Of a DNA stretch of 64,000 nucleotides, positions 43,522 to 60,459 are shown one piece after another; position 1 is the stretch's first letter; the number at the start of each line of letters is the position of its first letter. A program made the translations under genes and the position numbers. The notes beneath the pieces were generated by a model that was given only the letters and a program-made list of their open reading frames with translations, was not told the origin of the DNA and did not search any database. Source of the stretch: Bacteroidales bacterium. Lineage in GTDB: Bacteria; Bacteroidota; Bacteroidia; Bacteroidales; GCA-2748055. The stretch is taken from positions 422 to 64,421 of the forward strand of contig JAWOHR010000212.1 in NCBI GenBank assembly GCA_046485075.1, written 5' to 3'.

Positions 43522-44304
43522 ATGAATTTTAAGATCAGCCATATTCCGGAAAGAAGTTCCGGGAACAGGAACCATGGACTTACCATGATGATGGATAAAG
43601 GTTTAAGTCTGGGCGAAGCAGGATATTTTGTGGATTCCAGTGCACCCTACACCGACCTGGTTAAATTCGGATTTGGTACTGCCCTGATCACCAGGAATCT
43701 AAAGGAGAAGGTGAAACTTTATCAGAATGCAGGATTGAAACCCTATTTTGGAGGTACGCTTTTTGAAATGTTTTTCATCCGAAACCAATTCGATGACTAC
43801 AGGAGATTTGTATCTGAATCGGGATTGAATAACGTGGAGGTTTCCGATGGAACCATCAGGATGGAGCATGATGAGAAGCTGAGGTGTATTGAAATTCTGT
43901 CGTCCGATTTCCAGGTACTTTCCGAAGTGGGAAGCAAGGTAAAGGGGGTCGAGTTATCCAACGAAATGTGGGTATCTTGCATGAAGAGCGAGCTTGAAGC
44001 CGGAGCCTGGAAGGTTATTGGAGAGGCGCGGGAGAGTGGCACCATTGGCTTATATCAGTCGGACGGTTCTGCCAACAGGGAGTTAATTGACGATATCATG
44101 AAAGAGATATCGGTAGAAGATGTACTTTGGGAAGCCCCCAATAAGCCACAGCAGATTATGTTTATACAGATGATTGGTGCCAATGTGAACCTGGGAAATA
44201 TTGCCCCCAACGAGGTGGTTTCACTGGAAGCATTACGCTGCGGTATGAGGGGTGATACTTTTTTCGACGTATTACCCAAAGAGTTCCATTCCAGAAAATT
44301 GTAA
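43522..44304 (+). CDS. comA: phosphosulfolactate synthase (ComA family)
   Basis: The GLTMMMDKGL...YTDLVKFGFGT pattern and the 260-aa TIM-barrel size are characteristic of (2R)-phospho-3-sulfolactate synthase. Confidence 0.75.
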   Translation: MNFKISHIPERSSGNRNHGLTMMMDKGLSLGEAGYFVDSSAPYTDLVKFGFGTALITRNLKEKVKLYQNAGLKPYFGGTLFEMFFIRNQFDDYRRFVSESGLNNVEVSDGTIRMEHDEKLRCIEILSSDFQVLSEVGSKVKGVELSNEMWVSCMKSELEAGAWKVIGEARESGTIGLYQSDGSANRELIDDIMKEISVEDVLWEAPNKPQQIMFIQMIGANVNLGNIAPNEVVSLEALRCGMRGDTFFDVLPKEFHSRKL

Positions 44305-53743: not shown

Positions 53744-55585
53744 ATGAACATCAAAAAAAACATATGGCTTATTCTTCTGCTCCTGACTGCCTTATCGGTT
53801 AAAGGTCAGGAGGATGGCTATAGGGCAACTGCACCCGGGATGGTGAGGGCAGGTGAACAGTTCCAGTATGTGATAGAAGGATCTAAACAGGGAGATGTGT
53901 CCCTTCCGTCCATAGAGGGATTCCAGTTGCTGGCCGGACCGTTTTCATCATTTTCATCGCACTCACAATGGATCAATGGAAAAATGAGCATGGAGACGGT
54001 GGTGACCTACACCCATATTTTCAGGGCAAACCAGCCGGGAACCTACACCATTCCACCCGCAACGGTGCGAGCAGGCCGCAAGGATTACAAGACCAACGTG
54101 GTCGAAATAACGGTTACAGGTATTGGTTCTCAGCCACCCCCCGCGGGTGGCAATGGCCAGGGAGTGGCACCGGACGGCTCAGGCGCACAGGAGGTGGAAT
54201 CCGATGGGTCTGATCCCGTTTTTCTGAGGGTGATCCCCAACAAGACAAATGTATATGTGGGTGAACAACTGTTAAGCGTACTAAGGGTTTACACCCGTGT
54301 AAATACAAGGCCTGCCGGTGGAACAAAAGATATCCCCTATGAAGGGTTTTATAAAAAATCACTTGACCCCGATGCAAGTGCCACAAGACAAGATATCAAC
54401 GGGGAGCAGTTTGTTACCCAGATCATACAGCGTCACATACTCATACCCCAAAAATCCGGAGAGATCGTTATTGAACCCTTTGATTCGGAGTGGATGGTTC
54501 AGCAGAGGGTTCAGCGGCAAAGCAACAGTGTATTTGACAGCTTTTTTGATGACCCGTTCTTTAGTAGTGTGCAGGAGGTACCTACAAACCTGTCGACTTC
54601 TCCGGTTACAATTCATGTAAAGCCACTGCCGGCAGGTGCACCTGCCGGATTTACCGGGGGGGTCGGGAGTTTTTCCATGAAGGCAGAACTCTCTGCCGAA
54701 GAGGTTGAAGTCAACGAGGCCCTGAGCCTCAGGATCACGATCCGGGGAACCGGAAACCTGCCTTTAATGGGAGAGCCGGAAGTAAACCTGCCACCCGATC
54801 ATGATCTATATGATGTAAGCCACTCCCTGAACATTTCTGTCTCCGGCAACCAGATTGGTGGCTCCGTAACCTATGAATACCCTATTGTTGCCAGGCATGC
54901 GGGCCGTTTCAGGATCGCTCCCATTCAATTCTCCTGGTTCGATCCGGCCTCCGGATCGTACCATTCAACCACCAGCGGTGAGTTTAATTTCACAGTTCTG
55001 AAGGGCAATACAGAGGATGGAACCGGGAATGTTTATATTCCAGGTATCATGAAGGAGAGTGTGGAAAACCTGGGAATAGATATTCGGGATATCACGCGCA
55101 TGACTCCTGCCCTGACCCCTGTGGCATACAGCCTGATGGGGCAGCGATGGTACAGAATGCTCTACCTTGTTATTGTGCTGCTGGTCACTGTGTTTATTCT
55201 TTATATCAGGACCGTTTCCCGGCGAAATGCCGACCTGAGGCTTATGAGGAACCGGAAGGCCAGCCGCTCAGCCCTGAACAGGTTTAAACTTGCCGATAAG
55301 TACCGGAAAAGTGGTGATGAAGATCGTTTTTATGACGAGGTTGGAAAGGCGATCTGGGGATACCTGGCGGATAAACTTGGAATTGAGACCTCGGGACTAT
55401 CCCGCGAGGCAATCAGCTCAAAACTGGCTTACAGGAATGTTTCTCCGGAATTGCTGGAAGAGTTCTCACGTATCCTGGACGAGACCGAATTCTCGAGGTT
55501 TGCCCCAACCGCTGATAAATCCGCAACGGATCAGCTGTACAGGGATGCCCTGCATTTAATCAAAAACCTTGAAAACAGTCTGTGA
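53744..55585 (+). CDS. batD: BatD-like oxygen-tolerance protein
   Basis: Signal peptide, a large extracytoplasmic region, one TM helix (LYLVIVLLVTVFILYI), a cytoplasmic tail, and position after batC. Confidence 0.8.
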   Translation: MNIKKNIWLILLLLTALSVKGQEDGYRATAPGMVRAGEQFQYVIEGSKQGDVSLPSIEGFQLLAGPFSSFSSHSQWINGKMSMETVVTYTHIFRANQPGTYTIPPATVRAGRKDYKTNVVEITVTGIGSQPPPAGGNGQGVAPDGSGAQEVESDGSDPVFLRVIPNKTNVYVGEQLLSVLRVYTRVNTRPAGGTKDIPYEGFYKKSLDPDASATRQDINGEQFVTQIIQRHILIPQKSGEIVIEPFDSEWMVQQRVQRQSNSVFDSFFDDPFFSSVQEVPTNLSTSPVTIHVKPLPAGAPAGFTGGVGSFSMKAELSAEEVEVNEALSLRITIRGTGNLPLMGEPEVNLPPDHDLYDVSHSLNISVSGNQIGGSVTYEYPIVARHAGRFRIAPIQFSWFDPASGSYHSTTSGEFNFTVLKGNTEDGTGNVYIPGIMKESVENLGIDIRDITRMTPALTPVAYSLMGQRWYRMLYLVIVLLVTVFILYIRTVSRRNADLRLMRNRKASRSALNRFKLADKYRKSGDEDRFYDEVGKAIWGYLADKLGIETSGLSREAISSKLAYRNVSPELLEEFSRILDETEFSRFAPTADKSATDQLYRDALHLIKNLENSL

Positions 55586-56337
55586 TGAAAATAGTTAAAC
55601 TTTGCTTGATCCTGTTTTTTAGTGCAAGCCAGCTGTTTGCTTCCGTCGATTCAATCTATATGCAGGCAGTGAAACTCTACGAGGCGGGTGAATTCGAATC
55701 AGCACTGGAAACCTGGCAGAGGGTAGTGGATTCAGGCTATGAGTCACCCGAACTATATTACAACATGGGAAATGCAGCGTTTCGCTCCAACAGCATCGGT
55801 TATGCTGCCCTTTATTATGAAAAGGCGTTGAAGCTTGATCCCTCCTATGGGGATGCCGCACATAACCTGGAATTTCTTTCGCGCTATAAATCGGATGGCT
55901 TTGAGGAGGTGCCCGAATTTTTTATCCGGACCTGGATCTCTTCAACTGTGAAGGCTCTACCAGAACGGACCTGGAGCATTATGGCACTGGCCGGATTTTT
56001 ATTCACGGTTTTTTTCCTGCTACTTTATATCTTTGCACGTGGACTCACCCTTAAAAAAACCGGATTCTTTGCAGGCCTTGGGGGGCTCATTTTTACCGCT
56101 TTCACTTTATTTTCGGCAGTTGCAACTTACCACGAAATAATACGGCCGGATTCGGGAATCATTCTATCTCCCTCGGTCACTGTGAAAAGCACACCCAGTG
56201 AGACCGGAACAGAGTTGTTTATCCTGCATGAAGGGACCAGGGTAAAGGTGAACGAGGAGGTGACCGGATGGCATAACATCCGGATTATCGACGGCAGGGA
56301 AGGTTGGATCAGGACGGGTGATTTCGGGACCATTTAA
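55582..56337 (+). CDS. batE: BatE-like TPR + SH3b domain membrane protein
   Basis: TPR repeats (ELYYNMGNAAFRSN...YYEKALKLDP), two TM helices and a C-terminal SH3b-like GWHNIRIIDGREGWI. Confidence 0.75.
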   Translation: MMKIVKLCLILFFSASQLFASVDSIYMQAVKLYEAGEFESALETWQRVVDSGYESPELYYNMGNAAFRSNSIGYAALYYEKALKLDPSYGDAAHNLEFLSRYKSDGFEEVPEFFIRTWISSTVKALPERTWSIMALAGFLFTVFFLLLYIFARGLTLKKTGFFAGLGGLIFTAFTLFSAVATYHEIIRPDSGIILSPSVTVKSTPSETGTELFILHEGTRVKVNEEVTGWHNIRIIDGREGWIRTGDFGTI

Positions 56338-56343
56338 ACCAGG

Positions 56344-57498
56344 ATGAAGATGCCAGTGAAGAAGAGTTTCCAGGAGATCAATGAAAAAATCAGAAAGGGG
56401 AATGCGGTTGTTCTCACAGCCGAGGAGGTTTCTGCCATGGGCAGGGAGCTTTCGCCGGCCCAGGTAGCAGAAAAGGTCGATGTGGTCACCACGGCAACTT
56501 TCGGACCCATGTGCTCATCGGGCCTGTTCATAAATACCGGCCACCCTGATCCGCCCATCAGAATGGAGAGCGCAACTCTCAACGGAGTCCCTGTTTTTAC
56601 CGGGATCGCCGCTGTCGATCTTTATATCGGGGCTACCGAGAACCATCCGGAGCGGCCCGATTATGGCGGAGCGCACATCATTGAAGAGCTGATTGACGGG
56701 AAGGATGTGGAGCTTATCGCCCACGCCAAAGGAACCGACTGCTATCCAAGGCGCGATATCCGAACCACCATCAACCGGGATAATATCAATGAGATGATGA
56801 TGTTCAATCCCCGCAATGCATACCAGAACTATCCTGCAGCCGTCAATGGTTCTAACCGGATCAAGTATACCTACATGGGTAGCTTGCTTCCACATATGGG
56901 CAATGCAAACTACAGTACTTCCGGTGAGCTGAGTCCGTTGCTCAATGATCCTGATATGCGGACCATCGGTCTGGGAACACGGATTTTTCTCGGCGGAACC
57001 ACAGGCTATGTGAGCTGGCATGGAACTCAGTACAGGAGCAATGCTGAGCGCAACGACCATGGCGTTCCCGTTTCCAATTCTGCTACCCTTTCAGTGATCG
57101 GGAATGCCAAAAACATGAGTTCCTCCTTTATAAAAGCCGCCTATTATGAAAAATACGGAGTATCTATCTTTGTGGGAATCGGAATCCCCATACCGGTGCT
57201 GGATGAGGAGATGGCTGCCAGGGTGATGATCAGGAACGATCAGATTACCACCCGAATTCTGGATTATGGTTACCCGGACCACCCGGAGGTTGGCAGGATT
57301 AATTACGCCCAGCTCATGTCAGGTGAGATTGAACTTAACGGGAAATTGATCAGGACCTCTTCTCTTTCAAGTTTATACAAAGCCCGAAAGATAGCGGATA
57401 TTTTAAAAAAGCAGGTGAGTAGCGGTACATTTTTGCTGACCGAACCCCTGGAGGCATTCCCGGCTGGAAAAGGATTGAATTCACTTGAAATCAGGTGA
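56344..57498 (+). CDS. DUF39 / COG1900-type homocysteine biosynthesis protein
   Basis: The N-terminus (SFQEINEKIRKGNAVVLTAEEV) and the length match the DUF39 family implicated in sulfide-dependent homocysteine synthesis in methanogens. Confidence 0.8.
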   Translation: MKMPVKKSFQEINEKIRKGNAVVLTAEEVSAMGRELSPAQVAEKVDVVTTATFGPMCSSGLFINTGHPDPPIRMESATLNGVPVFTGIAAVDLYIGATENHPERPDYGGAHIIEELIDGKDVELIAHAKGTDCYPRRDIRTTINRDNINEMMMFNPRNAYQNYPAAVNGSNRIKYTYMGSLLPHMGNANYSTSGELSPLLNDPDMRTIGLGTRIFLGGTTGYVSWHGTQYRSNAERNDHGVPVSNSATLSVIGNAKNMSSSFIKAAYYEKYGVSIFVGIGIPIPVLDEEMAARVMIRNDQITTRILDYGYPDHPEVGRINYAQLMSGEIELNGKLIRTSSLSSLYKARKIADILKKQVSSGTFLLTEPLEAFPAGKGLNSLEIR

Positions 57499-57535
57499 GC
57501 CGATTAAATGATCAAGGACTGGAGAGGAATAAAGG

Positions 57536-57958
57536 ATGAAAAAAGAGAAGAAAAGGCTGGTGCTCAGGTTTCCGGCAGAGCGTGTCAATGAGCCCATCAC
57601 CTACGTATTAATCAAGGAGTATGATGTGAGAATCAACATTCTCAATGCCGACATCACACATGGCAAGGTGGGGAACCTGCTTATCGAGATGAGTGGTGAA
57701 CCCGTGAATATGAATGAGGCATTGGAATATCTTAAAAATAAGAATGTTGGCATATCTCCGGTGGTGAAGACCATCCTTTTCGATGAAACGAAATGTATCC
57801 ATTGCGGAGCCTGCGCTTCAGTCTGCTTTCCAGGTGCACTCACCATAAAGGATTCCTCCCGTAAACTGAAATTTTCGCCTGAGCTTTGTATTGCGTGTGA
57901 ACTCTGTATTAAAGCATGTCCCCTTCAGCTGTTTGAACTCAATTTCGGAGAAAATTAA
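57536..57958 (+). CDS. NIL domain fused to a 2x[4Fe-4S] ferredoxin
   Basis: NIL motif (VRINILNADI) followed by two CxxCxxCxxxCP clusters (CIHCGACASVCFP, CIACELCIKACP). Confidence 0.85.
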   Translation: MKKEKKRLVLRFPAERVNEPITYVLIKEYDVRINILNADITHGKVGNLLIEMSGEPVNMNEALEYLKNKNVGISPVVKTILFDETKCIHCGACASVCFPGALTIKDSSRKLKFSPELCIACELCIKACPLQLFELNFGEN

Positions 57959-58741
57959 TTGTATCAGCCCAGGATATACCGGGAAGAGATGAATTCGGAC
58001 CGTTTCCGTTTTTTCTCTTCGCTTCACCATGAATCCGACCTTCTGGTTGGTATCAGTCATCACCTCTACCAACCCTTTGTTGAATCTGTATGCAGGGAGG
58101 AACAAATGCGCCTCTATGAGCTGCTCATTAGTCACATGGCGCTCCATCCCGACTTTGCAACCTCCCTTGATCCGCTTGAGATGCCGGGCGATAACGGAGA
58201 CATGCCGTTTGAACTGAAAACCATGTATGACTGTGCAATGACTACCGGTACCGGACCGATGAGTTCGGTGGCCGGACTCTTCGCCCGGGAGGTGGGCAGG
58301 GCCATTGCAAAGCATACCGGGGCAGGATCCGGTCCTGGAGGGGTCAAGATTCATTCTGCTGAAGTGATGGTGGAGAACGGGGGAGATCTCTATATAAGGA
58401 ACAGGGATGATCTGGTGGTGGCGGTTCATGCCGGGGAGGTGGCGCTTTCGGGAAAACTGGGCCTGGTGATCCCACCGGGTGAATGGGGCATATGTACCTC
58501 ATCAGGCACTATAGGTCACTCCTTCAGCATGGGGAGAGCAGATGCTGTCACCATTGTCTCACGAGATACTCCGCTGGCCGATGCATGGGCTACAGCGCTC
58601 GCCAACCAGGTGCAGGGCAGGGAAGATATCCGGCCGCTGCTGGACCGTGTGGCGGGGATACCCGAAATTCTCGCCTGTGTGATAATTGCCGGAGGAGAGG
58701 TAGGAATCCGGGGAATATTTGAAACAAAAATTCTAACTTAG
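57959..58741 (+). CDS. UPF0280 / COG2122 family protein (ApbE-like superfamily)
   Basis: The N-terminus (YQPRIYREEM...FRFFSSLHHESDLLVG) and the 260-aa size resemble UPF0280. Recognition is from memory only. Confidence 0.55.
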   Translation: MYQPRIYREEMNSDRFRFFSSLHHESDLLVGISHHLYQPFVESVCREEQMRLYELLISHMALHPDFATSLDPLEMPGDNGDMPFELKTMYDCAMTTGTGPMSSVAGLFAREVGRAIAKHTGAGSGPGGVKIHSAEVMVENGGDLYIRNRDDLVVAVHAGEVALSGKLGLVIPPGEWGICTSSGTIGHSFSMGRADAVTIVSRDTPLADAWATALANQVQGREDIRPLLDRVAGIPEILACVIIAGGEVGIRGIFETKILT

Positions 58742-58746
58742 GATTT

Positions 58747-60459
58747 GTGAATAGTCTCATTCTGGTCATACTCGCAATTGCCGGTTACCTGGCTTCATAC
58801 CGTTTTTACGGGCGATATCTGGGAAACAAGGTCCTTAAACTGGCTGCCACACGTATCATGCCTTCCCATGAGCTGAACGATGGGGTGGACTATGTCCCAA
58901 CCAAATCGCACATTGTTTTCGGCCACCATTTTACCACGATTGCCGGACTGGGGCCCATTGTCGGACCTGCTATCGGAATTATTTGGGGATGGCTCCCGGC
59001 CTTCTTATGGGTATTCCTGGGAAGTATTTTCATGGGAGCCGTTCACGACTTTACCACCCTGGTTGTCTCCGCAAGAAATAAAGGTCGCTCCATAGGTGAA
59101 CTCACCGGAGAAATGATCAGCCCCTCCACGAGGTATGCACTTCAGTTTATCATGCAGCTGTTACTATTCATCGTACTTGCGGTTTTTGCAATGATCGTGG
59201 GTAGCCTGTTTGTCATGTATCCCGAATCGGTGATCCCTGTGTGGTTCCAGATTCCCGTGGCGGTCTGGCTGGGATGGCAGATCCGCAGGGGTAAAAACGA
59301 CCTGGTATATTCCATAATAGCCCTCCTTTTGCTCTATGGTTTCGTGATCCTGGGAGTCAGGTTTCCGGTTTCCCTACCCTGGGATCAACAAACCTCAGTT
59401 GTGGTCTGGTGCATTCTCCTTTTTATCTATGTATTTTTCGCCTCCACCATACCCGTGCAGAAATTGCTTCAGCCGCGCGATTACATCAATTCTCACCAGC
59501 TATTGGTGGCCATGGCCTTTCTGATCCTGGGAATAATAATTGCGCACCCGCTCATTTCCGCCCCAGCCATTAACCAGGCTGCTTTAGCCCCGGATTCAGA
59601 CGTTCCTCCAATGGCACCCATCCTGTTTATCATCATAGCCTGTGGTGCCATTTCTGGCTTCCATTCCCTGGCCAGTTCGGGGACCACCGTAAAACAGGTT
59701 GACCGGGAGACAGATGCGCTTCCCATCGGATATGGCGCCATGATTACCGAAAGTCTCCTGGCTGTTCTTGTGATTATAGCAGCCGGAGCAGGTCTTGGTA
59801 TGGGACTCGAGGCCGATGGGGAGGTGTTGACCGGCCTGGCGGCTTATAAACATCACTACACTTCATGGTCATCCGCAAACGGACTGGCCGCCAAGCTGGA
59901 TGCATTTATTATCGGGTCAGCAAACCTCTTCTCCAGCTTCGGTCTGCCCGTTAAATACGGAGCAGCGTTTGTGGTAGTCTTTATTGTGTCATTTGCCAAT
60001 ACAACACTCGACTCTGCAGCAAGAATCCAGCGCATTTCGCTCCAGGAGATCTTTAGCCGGCCAGACCGAAGCATCAGGAAGCCCTTCAACAACCGTTACC
60101 TGGCCACTTTGATCATTGTGGTTTCCGCGGCTTGCCTGACTTTCTTCAAACCGGGAGGACAGGGGGCCATGGTGCTGTGGCCGCTCTTCGGATCCCTTAA
60201 CCAGCTGATGGCTGCCCTGGCACTTGGGGTGGTTACAGTTTACTTTCATGCAAAAAAAATGCCCATCTGGTATACTGCCATCCCCATGGTTCTGGTCCTG
60301 GCGTTTACCCTTTGGGCCATGGTAACGAATCTGAATGATTTCATCCTGGAAGGCGAAATTTTGCTTGTGATACTGTCGGGCATCATCCTGTTACTGACAA
60401 CATGGCTCGCCGTGAGCAGTATTCTGGCCCTGACCGCGAAAAAACAGAGCGGCTATTGA
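58747..60459 (+). CDS. cstA: carbon starvation protein CstA family (peptide/pyruvate transporter family)
   Basis: Hallmark FGHHFTTIAGLGPIVGPAIG in a polytopic 570-aa protein. GTG start. Confidence 0.9.
   Translation: MNSLILVILAIAGYLASYRFYGRYLGNKVLKLAATRIMPSHELNDGVDYVPTKSHIVFGHHFTTIAGLGPIVGPAIGIIWGWLPAFLWVFLGSIFMGAVHDFTTLVVSARNKGRSIGELTGEMISPSTRYALQFIMQLLLFIVLAVFAMIVGSLFVMYPESVIPVWFQIPVAVWLGWQIRRGKNDLVYSIIALLLLYGFVILGVRFPVSLPWDQQTSVVVWCILLFIYVFFASTIPVQKLLQPRDYINSHQLLVAMAFLILGIIIAHPLISAPAINQAALAPDSDVPPMAPILFIIIACGAISGFHSLASSGTTVKQVDRETDALPIGYGAMITESLLAVLVIIAAGAGLGMGLEADGEVLTGLAAYKHHYTSWSSANGLAAKLDAFIIGSANLFSSFGLPVKYGAAFVVVFIVSFANTTLDSAARIQRISLQEIFSRPDRSIRKPFNNRYLATLIIVVSAACLTFFKPGGQGAMVLWPLFGSLNQLMAALALGVVTVYFHAKKMPIWYTAIPMVLVLAFTLWAMVTNLNDFILEGEILLVILSGIILLLTTWLAVSSILALTAKKQSGY

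What the first reader, a model, noticed from the sequence alone, without database searches (positions are those of the whole stretch)
56344..58741. Methanogen-type sulfide-dependent homocysteine module (DUF39 + NIL-ferredoxin + UPF0280) as a contiguous trio in a Bacteroidota genome
DUF39/COG1900 proteins and NIL-domain ferredoxins are the pair reported as required for homocysteine synthesis from aspartate semialdehyde and sulfide in Methanosarcina (MA1821/MA1822). From memory, a COG2122/UPF0280 ApbE-like protein (MA1715) was linked to the same sulfur-trafficking process by phylogenetic profiling.

Here all three are adjacent and co-directional, with gaps of 37 nt and 0 nt. That is physical-linkage evidence that they work together. 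The chemistry of the DUF39 reaction and the role of UPF0280 remain poorly defined. Their presence also marks this organism as an anaerobe or microaerophile living with free sulfide.
Basis: partly seen in the sequence, partly recalled or inferred. Interest (0 to 1): 0.6.

Follow-up and report, generated by a model that had tools for sequence, protein, structure and literature searches.

The report
Known sulfide-dependent homocysteine gene trio
Three adjacent genes in this uncultured Bacteroidales bacterium are a further copy of an already described pathway that makes the methionine precursor homocysteine from aspartate semialdehyde and sulfide; here it is an optional extra beside the classical route, so the finding is real but ordinary.

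Summary
Window 56344-57498 is a full-length PF01837/HcyBio (DUF39, COG1900a) protein. 57536-57958 is a NIL domain plus a 2x[4Fe-4S] ferredoxin. 57959-58741 is a COG2122/PRK04334 ApbE-fold protein. The gaps are 37 nt and 0 nt.

[quoted passage not shown] Both defining DUF39 cysteines, all eight ferredoxin cysteines and the COG2122 motifs are conserved, and the genes are under purifying selection.

It is not new:
- Adjacency of the three genes was published in 2014, and the genetic requirement for all three in 2018.
- The same gene order occurs in 64 of 76 related loci across about ten phyla.
- Databases already name close relatives 'homocysteine biosynthesis protein'.
- This scan has flagged the trio in at least 108 other genomes.

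The copy belongs to a bacterial clade, not a methanogen one. The genome also has MetA, O-acetylhomoserine sulfhydrylase and MetH, so the trio is a second route.

Local particulars: the trio is a clean cassette between batE and cstA. It is present in 35 of 49 genus genomes and was lost at least three times. It lacks the SAM riboswitch and the metH linkage seen in other Bacteroidota.

Interest is low.

The parts
56344..57498 (+). L-ASST catalytic subunit (DUF39 / COG1900a / PF01837 HcyBio), 384 aa. It has no CBS tail. Its only two cysteines are C57 and C133.
   Evidence: PF01837 at E=1.2e-143 over the full profile. MMP16 model TIGR03287 scores only 122 bits against a 364-bit cut-off. C57 is conserved in 90/90 and C133 in 91/91 relatives. 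The AlphaFold2 model has pLDDT 95.2. dN/dS is about 0.03-0.05.
57536..57958 (+). NIL-domain ferredoxin (MA1822 type), 140 aa: an N-terminal NIL domain (residues 7-72) and two CX2CX2CX3C [4Fe-4S] motifs.
   Evidence: PF09383 at 62.6 bits; Fer4 family matches. All eight cysteines are invariant in 80-81 relatives. It directly follows DUF39 in most related loci.
57959..58741 (+). COG2122 / UPF0280 (PRK04334) ApbE-fold protein (MA1715 / DvMF_0044 type), 260 aa, TTG start abutting the preceding stop codon.
   Evidence: NF003323 at E=1.2e-53, 182 bits, below its 271-bit cut-off. PDB 2o34 at E=1.8e-19 by sequence and TM 0.75-0.85 by fold; ApbE/Ftp at TM about 0.5. Conserved motifs are GPM, ENGGD and C179-x-S..G-x-S-x-S-x-G-x-AD. 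No Pfam match even at E<=10.
55582..56337 (+). batE (TPR + SH3b), last gene of the Bat/MoxR-VWA operon. It is the upstream boundary of the cassette, 6 nt before DUF39.
   Evidence: Pfam TPR and SH3_3 matches. In genus-mates without the trio, batE is followed directly by cstA.
58747..60459 (+). cstA (carbon starvation / pyruvate-peptide transporter family). It is the downstream boundary of the cassette, 5 nt after COG2122.
   Evidence: PF02554 at E=6.4e-140. The batD-batE-trio-cstA order is conserved in the genus. batE and cstA abut where the trio is absent.

Best explanation

Proposed mechanism:
- The DUF39/COG1900a subunit takes sulfur on its conserved cysteines (C57, C133) and transfers it to aspartate semialdehyde.
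- The NIL-ferredoxin supplies electrons through two [4Fe-4S] clusters to reduce the intermediate to homocysteine.
- The NIL domain probably confers methionine feedback.
- The COG2122 ApbE-fold protein helps deliver or mobilise sulfide.
- Homocysteine is then methylated by MetH, which is encoded elsewhere in the genome.

What is shown here: family membership, conserved residues, gene order, purifying selection, and the link to SAM riboswitches and metH in relatives. What is taken from the literature on other organisms, or inferred: the chemistry and the role of each subunit.

In this genus the system is an accessory cassette. It sits at one fixed site between the Bat operon and cstA and was inherited from the genus ancestor. 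It has been deleted cleanly several times. It is redundant with the core MetA / O-acetylhomoserine sulfhydrylase route.
For: Family and residues:
- Full-length PF01837, NIL+Fer4 and PRK04334 matches.
- C57 and C133 fall in the FGPMCSSG and GTDCYPR motifs, which are invariant in COG1900a-type relatives, including the CBS-tailed archaeal representative P0127.
- These correspond to Cys54 (essential) and Cys131 of MA1821 (PMC12068725).
- The COG2122 model matches DVU1097 (2o34) and the ApbE fold.

Links to methionine in relatives:
- Rfam finds a SAM-I riboswitch directly upstream of DUF39 in 9 of the 20 non-genus loci tested.
- An nhmmer profile finds one in 22 of 80 loci.
- A full-length metH directly follows the trio in Mariniphaga anaerophila and a Prolixibacteraceae MAG.

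Genetics elsewhere:
- All three genes are needed for homocysteine synthesis in D. vulgaris (PMC5764234).
- DUF39 is needed in D. alaskensis (PMC4045070).

Substrate supply: asd is present.

Selection: dN is far below dS for all three genes.

Cassette behaviour in the genus:
- 35 of 49 genus genomes carry it.
- COG2122 was absent from all five DUF39-less genomes tested.
- batE abuts cstA in four of those five.
- At least 3 changes are forced on the flank tree.
- The same sister pairs appear in the cassette tree and the flank tree.

Redundancy:
- MetA scores 478 bits against a 460.5 cut-off.
- O-acetylhomoserine sulfhydrylase scores 657 bits against 495 and lies next to metH.
- The sulfhydrylase is present in 26 of 26 high-quality genus genomes.
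Against: - No experiment exists on this organism or any Bacteroidota member, so activity is inferred by homology.
- COG2122 scores below the NCBIfam equivalog cut-off (182 against 271 bits).
- MA1821 itself was not in my alignment. The Cys54/Cys131 correspondence rests on motif, spacing (76 against 77 residues) and a CBS-tailed archaeal representative.
- Because the classical route is present, the cassette's contribution to homocysteine supply in vivo is unknown.
- The window lacks the SAM riboswitch and the metH linkage that tie relatives to methionine.
- dS is saturated, so the dN/dS values are rough.
- Gain-versus-loss polarity rests on a short two-gene flank tree.
Confidence: 0.85

Rival explanations
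1. The cassette's main product here is not homocysteine. Because MetA/MetY already supply homocysteine, the DUF39 enzyme would act on another aldehyde. One candidate is sulfoacetaldehyde, giving a coenzyme-M-like thiol fed by the ComA gene 12 kb upstream. Alternatively it would act as a general persulfide relay.
For: L-ASST may partly substitute for the paralogous CoM synthase MMP16 in M. acetivorans (PMC12068725). The classical homocysteine route is complete and core in the genus. A ComA homolog lies at window 43522-44304. The window has no SAM riboswitch.
Against: ComA is present in 26 of 26 high-quality genus genomes, including those without the cassette, so the two do not co-vary. The protein is COG1900a type with both L-ASST cysteines and scores far below the MMP16 model. 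Related copies in other Bacteroidota, at 59-65% DUF39 identity, are under SAM riboswitches or followed by metH. No other CoM genes were noted.
Confidence: 0.06
2. The cassette is a decaying, functionally redundant relic on its way to loss in this genome.
For: It is redundant with MetA/MetY. It was lost at least three times in the genus. It has no dedicated regulatory element.
Against: All three ORFs are intact. Every catalytic cysteine and motif is conserved. dN/dS is about 0.03-0.24. DUF39 is better conserved (70-87% identity) than the flanking batE (51-79%) across the genus.
Confidence: 0.04
3. The trio is a recent horizontal import from methanogenic archaea into this Bacteroidota genome.
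For: PF01837 was not found in 400 other sampled Bacteroidota genomes. The pathway was first characterised in methanogens.
Against: The nearest relatives are other Bacteroidales (a Rikenellaceae-labelled sister clade with 90% support), then Spirochaetota and Fidelibacterota. Archaeal copies are only 52-53% identical and carry a CBS tail that is absent here. Within the genus, the cassette tree recovers the same sister pairs as the flank tree, and its divergence matches that of neighbouring core genes. GC content is not deviant.
Confidence: 0.02

Closest known systems
L-aspartate semialdehyde sulfurtransferase of Methanosarcina acetivorans (MA1821 DUF39-CBS + MA1822 NIL-ferredoxin, helped by MA1715 COG2122)
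   Same: The same three protein families. Both conserved DUF39 cysteines are present. The ferredoxin has the same NIL plus 2x[4Fe-4S] architecture. As in M. acetivorans, the genome also keeps an O-acetylhomoserine sulfhydrylase, so the route is redundant.
   Different: There is no C-terminal CBS (SAM-sensing) domain on DUF39. COG2122 is adjacent here, whereas MA1715 lies apart from MA1821-22 by gene numbering. Identity to archaeal copies is only about 50%.
Desulfovibrio DUF39 / NIL-ferredoxin / COG2122 homocysteine pathway (Dde_3007; DvMF_1464, DvMF_0262, DvMF_0044; DVU2938)
   Same: A bacterial, CBS-less DUF39. All three families are required genetically there (PMC5764234, PMC4045070). The COG2122 fold matches D. 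vulgaris DVU1097 (2o34), TM 0.75-0.85.
   Different: By locus-tag numbering, the three genes are dispersed in Desulfovibrio, and they are the only homocysteine route there. Here they are contiguous and supplementary to MetA/MetY.
Dehalococcoides DET0921:DET0919 and the SAM-riboswitch-controlled DUF39-NIL/Fd-COG2122(-metH) operons of other bacteria, including Mariniphaga anaerophila
   Same: The same contiguous, co-directional gene order, found in 64 of 76 loci and in 30 of 31 Bacteroidota loci.
   Different: The window and its genus lack the SAM-I riboswitch and the downstream metH. Instead, the cassette is wedged between batE and cstA with 5-6 nt gaps.
MMP16 / ComF coenzyme M synthase (COG1900d)
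   Same: The same PF01837 superfamily and analogous aldehyde-to-thiol chemistry (PMC12068725).
   Different: The window protein scores 122 bits against a 364-bit cut-off on TIGR03287. It has no inserted ferredoxin domain, and it has the COG1900a cysteine pattern.

Membership tests
L-ASST catalytic subunit (COG1900a, PF01837 HcyBio) | Full-length match to PF01837 above the gathering score | tested here: met
   478.7 bits against 26.2; profile positions 1-349 of 349
L-ASST catalytic subunit (COG1900a, PF01837 HcyBio) | Essential cysteine equivalent to MA1821 Cys54 | tested here: met
   C57 lies in the FGPMCSSG motif. It is invariant in 90/90 relatives and in the CBS-tailed archaeal representative P0127. 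MA1821 itself was not in the alignment, so the correspondence rests on motif and spacing (PMC12068725).
L-ASST catalytic subunit (COG1900a, PF01837 HcyBio) | Second conserved (persulfide-bearing) cysteine equivalent to MA1821 Cys131 | tested here: met
   C133 lies in the GTDCYPR motif and is invariant in 91/91 relatives. The spacing is 76 residues, against 77 in MA1821.
L-ASST catalytic subunit (COG1900a, PF01837 HcyBio) | Not the MMP16/COG1900d paralog (no inserted ferredoxin; below the TIGR03287 cut-off) | tested here: met
   TIGR03287 scores 122.1 bits against a 363.95-bit cut-off. There is no insertion relative to P0262 in alignment A1.
L-ASST catalytic subunit (COG1900a, PF01837 HcyBio) | C-terminal CBS pair (a feature of archaeal members only) | tested here: not met
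   The protein ends about 20 residues after the HcyBio domain and has no CBS tail, unlike P0127. Bacterial members such as Dde_3007 also lack it (PMC4045070), so this does not exclude membership.
L-ASST catalytic subunit (COG1900a, PF01837 HcyBio) | Homocysteine formation from aspartate semialdehyde plus sulfide; auxotrophy on deletion | not testable with these tools
   This needs biochemistry or genetics.
NIL-ferredoxin electron-donor subunit (MA1822 type) | N-terminal NIL domain plus two CX2CX2CX3C [4Fe-4S] motifs, encoded next to DUF39 | tested here: met
   PF09383 scores 62.6 bits against 24. C87/90/93/97 and C118/121/124/128 are invariant. The gene lies 37 nt downstream of DUF39.
COG2122 / UPF0280 (PRK04334; MA1715, DvMF_0044, DVU1097) | Sequence match to the family model | tested here: inconclusive
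   NF003323 gives E=1.2e-53 over residues 2-255, but 182.1 bits is below the equivalog cut-off of 271. There is no Pfam model match. PDB 2o34 matches at E=1.8e-19.
COG2122 / UPF0280 (PRK04334; MA1715, DvMF_0044, DVU1097) | Truncated ApbE-like fold shared with DVU1097 | tested here: met
   The model has pLDDT 91.1. 2o34 matches at TM 0.75-0.85, E=3.6e-17. ApbE/Ftp/FmnB match at TM 0.45-0.57 with 10-15% identity.
COG2122 / UPF0280 (PRK04334; MA1715, DvMF_0044, DVU1097) | Conserved genomic association with DUF39 | tested here: met
   It lies downstream and co-directional in 64 of 76 trios and in 5 more loci without the ferredoxin gene. It was absent, together with DUF39, from all five DUF39-less genus-mates tested.
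SAM-riboswitch-controlled methionine operon | RF00162 aptamer upstream of the first gene | tested here: not met
   None was found in the window at the gathering score or at E<=10. None was found in the whole genome. One is present in 22 of 80 relatives' loci.

The most novel reading that the evidence does not exclude
In this genus the L-ASST cassette has been uncoupled from SAM-riboswitch control and from metH. It is now transcribed as the tail of the Bat (MoxR-VWA 'aerotolerance') operon, together with cstA.

On this reading, an oxygen-sensitive, ferredoxin-driven homocysteine route is switched with an envelope or oxygen-stress programme rather than by methionine status. It would serve as a backup to MetA/MetY under anoxic or low-sulfide conditions. 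Its repeated clean loss would track lineages that moved to more oxic or sulfide-poor niches.
Probability: 0.25. Interest if true: 0.35.

Novelty: new member of a known kind. Interest (0 to 1): 0.18.

Why it matters
It matters little beyond correct annotation. It adds an uncultured Bacteroidales genus to the hosts of a known, still mechanistically unresolved pathway.

Three points have modest value:
- The natural presence/absence polymorphism at one fixed site, in 35 of 49 species, is a ready-made comparative set. It could be used to ask when a second, Fe-S-dependent homocysteine route pays off beside MetA/MetY.
- The cultured Mariniphaga anaerophila DSM 26910 carries trio-metH. It offers a Bacteroidota host in which the pathway could be tested genetically.
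- A confident DUF39 model has no structural neighbour in the PDB. This underlines that the family still needs an experimental structure.

Tried and rejected
Co-transcription across batE-DUF39 and COG2122-cstA could not be tested.
- Promoters and terminators: the sigma-70 promoter and intrinsic-terminator scans gave counts at chance level. The Bacteroidetes -7 motif TAnnTTTG is not enriched (44 found, 36 +/- 6 expected). Its only matches near the trio are inside batE (56028) and inside DUF39 (57165). One more lies 58 nt before moxR (47642). No operon boundaries can be called.
- Phylum sampling: 0 of 400 other genomes had PF01837, which first suggested a genus-unique acquisition. I rejected this after search for related loci returned 32 Bacteroidota loci among its 80 best hits, 29 of them from lineages outside this genus.
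- CoM-like role through the nearby ComA: rejected as the main reading, because ComA is core to the genus regardless of the cassette.
- Complementary distribution with the classical route: rejected. The O-acetylhomoserine sulfhydrylase is universal in the genus.
- Structures: the PDB sequence search for DUF39 found nothing. The fold search found nothing meaningful either. Model coordinates are not exposed to scripts, so the C57-C133 distance could not be measured.
- Literature: searches for DVU1097 found no paper linking 2o34 to the genetics.
- Regulation of the classical genes: no SAM riboswitch was found at metY-metH, metA or asd of this genome.
- Homoserine dehydrogenase: seen only as a fragment at a contig edge. 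This is taken as an assembly break, not an absence.
Full report
OBSERVATION

- 56344-57498 encodes a 384-aa protein. It matches Pfam PF01837 (HcyBio, formerly DUF39) across the entire 349-position profile at E=1.2e-143.
- 57536-57958 encodes a 140-aa protein with an N-terminal NIL domain (PF09383, 62.6 bits). It also has two CX2CX2CX3C [4Fe-4S] motifs.
- 57959-58741 starts with TTG directly after the TAA of the ferredoxin gene. It encodes a 260-aa protein.
  - It matches NCBIfam NF003323 (PRK04334) at E=1.2e-53, below that model's equivalog cut-off.
  - It has no Pfam match, even at E<=10.
  - It matches PDB 2o34 at E=1.8e-19.

The gaps of 37 nt and 0 nt are correct.

WHAT IT IS

[quoted passage not shown] Its DUF39 subfamily is COG1900a. 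The subfamily is defined by two nearly universal cysteines, Cys54 (essential in vivo) and Cys131, in MA1821 numbering (PMC12068725).

The window protein contains exactly two cysteines, C57 and C133.

- They fall in the motifs FGPMCSSG and GTDCYPR.
- Both motifs are invariant in the closest cluster representatives, including a 504-aa CBS-tailed archaeal type. More divergent DUF39 subfamilies lack them.
- Across 91 related loci, C57 is conserved in 90/90 and C133 in 91/91.
- The protein scores only 122 bits on the MMP16 (CoM synthase, COG1900d) model, against a 364-bit cut-off.
- It lacks the archaeal CBS tail, as does the genetically characterised Desulfovibrio Dde_3007.

All eight ferredoxin cysteines are invariant.

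COG2122 keeps a conserved set of motifs: GPM, ENGGD and C179-x-S...G-x-S-x-S-x-G-x-AD.

- Its AlphaFold2 model has pLDDT 91.
- The model superposes on 2o34, which is DVU1097 of D. vulgaris, at TM 0.75-0.85.
- It superposes more distantly on ApbE/Ftp flavin transferases, at TM about 0.5 and 10-15% identity.
- The 'ApbE-like' description is therefore right at the fold level.

The DUF39 model is very confident (pLDDT 95.2). It has no structural neighbour in the PDB (best E=0.12, TM about 0.1) and no sequence relative there.

Pairwise dN is far below dS for all three genes against genus-mates. dN/dS is about 0.03-0.05 for DUF39, about 0.07 in the one comparison that could be estimated for the ferredoxin, and 0.13-0.24 for COG2122. 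dS is saturated, so these values are rough.

INDEPENDENT LINKS TO METHIONINE

Rfam finds a SAM-I riboswitch (RF00162) directly upstream of DUF39 in 9 of the 20 non-genus loci tested. An nhmmer profile built from those finds one in 22 of the 80 related loci, 13 of them Bacteroidota.

In the cultured Mariniphaga anaerophila DSM 26910 and in a Prolixibacteraceae MAG, the trio is followed directly by a full-length metH scoring over 2,000 bits.

The substrate-supplying asd gene is present in the window's genome.

HOW COMMON THE LAYOUT IS

Of 76 related loci with enough downstream sequence, 64 show the same co-directional order DUF39, NIL-ferredoxin, COG2122.

- These include 30 of 31 Bacteroidota loci.
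- They also include all 9 Spirochaetota loci, 18 Bacillota loci, and members of Thermotogota, Atribacterota, Thermodesulfobacteriota and two archaeal phyla.

PMC4045070 (2014) already states that DUF39 orthologs are often adjacent to, or fused with, a ferredoxin and often adjacent to COG2122. PMC5764234 (2018) shows that all three are required in D. vulgaris and cites the contiguous DET0921:DET0919 cluster of Dehalococcoides.

Close relatives are already named 'homocysteine biosynthesis protein [Bacteroidota/Bacteroidales bacterium]' by NCBI and 'L-aspartate semialdehyde sulfurtransferase' by JGI. This scan itself holds 111 earlier findings of the same trio, in at least 108 other genomes.

ORIGIN

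A random draw of 400 other Bacteroidota genomes (180 genera) contained no PF01837. The family is therefore rare in the phylum. It is not unique to this genus, however.

- A pattern search of GTDB species genomes returned copies labelled Rikenellaceae, Prolixibacteraceae, Draconibacterium, rumen Bacteroidaceae and Prevotellaceae, and Butyricimonas.
- In a DUF39 tree, the window groups with its genus in a clade with SH-aLRT support of 99.
- That clade is sister, with support of 90, to a clade labelled Rikenellaceae.
- Both lie inside a cluster of Bacteroidota, Spirochaetota and Fidelibacterota.
- Archaeal copies are distant, at 52-53% identity.

'Methanogen-type' thus describes where the pathway was discovered, not where this copy came from.

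THE LOCAL STORY

Within the genus (49 species genomes), 35 carry DUF39, including 20 of the 26 high-quality genomes.

- All 14 examined genus loci have the upstream order batD-batE-DUF39. In all 12 of those that extend that far, the NIL-ferredoxin and COG2122 genes follow, and cstA follows in 11 of the 12.
- I examined five high-completeness genus-mates that lack DUF39. COG2122 is absent from all five.
- In four of those five, batE is followed directly by cstA.

The trio is therefore a discrete cassette at one fixed site.

On a batD+batE flank tree, the cassette-less genomes are scattered. Starred branches force at least 3 changes, and the best tree needs 4. One cassette-less genome is the close sister of a cassette-bearing one.

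The cassette tree and the flank tree recover the same sister pairs. DUF39 divergence (70-87% identity) is comparable with that of cstA. The simplest reading is inheritance from the genus ancestor followed by repeated clean deletions. This polarity is an inference from a short two-gene tree.

Two other Bacteroidales lineages (L032, L051) also have bat genes upstream of the trio.

- L032 has a SAM riboswitch before the trio. It also has a histidine kinase gene and an ECF sigma factor gene interposed before cstA.
- The bat...cstA neighbourhood may therefore be older than the genus and may have been compacted here.

The window's genome has no SAM-I riboswitch at the trio or at its classical met genes. 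None was found anywhere else in the genome.

REDUNDANCY AND ECOLOGY

They are present.

- MetA of the acetyl type scores 478 bits against a 460.5-bit cut-off.
- An O-acetylhomoserine sulfhydrylase scores 657 bits against 495 and lies immediately upstream of metH.
- There are two further Cys/Met PLP enzymes.
- A homoserine dehydrogenase fragment sits at a contig edge.
- The sulfhydrylase is in 26 of 26 high-quality genus genomes.

The cassette is therefore an accessory second route. M. acetivorans is the same: loss of L-ASST alone gives no auxotrophy. A simple knockout would probably be prototrophic and would not refute the assignment.

The genome encodes a heme-copper oxidase and a cytochrome bd oxidase. 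No siroheme sulfite reductase was found in a 99.4%-complete assembly, while CysD is present. This is compatible with a microaerophile or facultative organism that relies on reduced sulfur. It does not indicate a strict anaerobe.

RIVALS

- A CoM-like or other-thiol role, prompted by the ComA gene 12 kb upstream and by the reported moonlighting of L-ASST. This is not supported. ComA is core to the genus whether or not the cassette is present. The protein is clearly COG1900a.
- Decay as a relic. Intact ORFs, invariant catalytic residues and purifying selection contradict this.
- Recent import from methanogens. The tree contradicts this.

VERDICT

The system, its gene order and the role of COG2122 are already published and already reflected in database names.

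What is particular to this locus:
- It is an accessory cassette.
- It lacks the riboswitch.
- It is embedded in the bat-cstA run.
- It has been lost repeatedly.

This is a modest evolutionary and regulatory footnote whose functional meaning is untested.

Noticed in passing
window 56344-57498 (model m5953841eb374): A very confident AlphaFold2 model of the DUF39 protein (pLDDT 95.2, pTM 0.91) has no structural neighbour in the PDB as of April 2026 (best Foldseek E=0.12, TM about 0.1). It has no sequence relative there either. The family still lacks any experimental structure.
   Followed up: partly
whole genome G000 (window lies on contig C170): No SAM-I riboswitch was found anywhere in the 99.4%-complete genome, either by Rfam RF00162 or by an nhmmer profile built from relatives (best E=2.8). 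Yet 22 of 80 related loci carry one in front of DUF39. How this genus regulates methionine synthesis is open.
   Followed up: partly
L045:6001-12226 (Mariniphaga anaerophila DSM 26910) and L040:5712-12132: In Prolixibacteraceae the trio is followed directly by a full-length metH. In L040 it is also preceded by a SAM-I riboswitch. This gives a compact aspartate-semialdehyde-to-methionine operon in a cultured Bacteroidota species that could serve as a genetic model.
   Followed up: partly
G000 contigs C220:66984-71092, C198:6474-7352; window 43522-44304: A heme-copper oxidase and a cytochrome bd oxidase lie side by side. No NIR_SIR sulfite reductase was found, but CysD is present, and ComA is core to the genus (26 of 26 high-quality genomes). 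Sulfate may be activated for sulfonation (sulfolactate or sulfonolipids) rather than reduced to sulfide.
   Followed up: no
L043, L044 (Fidelibacterota), L086 (Cloacimonadota), L090, L093: In these loci DUF39 is followed directly by COG2122, with no NIL-ferredoxin gene between them. In the two Desulfurobacterium loci (L099, L105) DUF39 stands alone. Some cluster representatives (P0124, P0125) carry a C-terminal ferredoxin fused to DUF39.
   Followed up: no
L032:2373-11617 (uncultured Bacteroidales): The neighbourhood is the same but looser: batE, then a PAS histidine kinase on the opposite strand, then a SAM riboswitch and the trio, then an ECF sigma factor on the opposite strand, then cstA. 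This suggests that the position between bat and cstA predates the window's genus.
   Followed up: partly
window 58320-58350 (COG2122 residues about 121-130): There is a glycine-rich insertion of about 5 residues (GAGSGPGGVK region) that is absent from most relatives outside the genus. It is modelled with low confidence (pLDDT about 55).
   Followed up: no
genus genome G456, contig C22:345186-359276: Both DUF39 and ComA are split into fragments with internal stop codons in this 65%-complete, 40-contig assembly. Frameshift errors in the assembly are more likely than true pseudogenes.
   Followed up: no
G000 contig C8 (L002:1399-4266) and C137 (L011:1489-2013): The O-acetylhomoserine sulfhydrylase gene lies directly upstream of metH. 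A second, partial MetA-like ORF sits at a contig end in addition to the full-length metA on C172.
   Followed up: no
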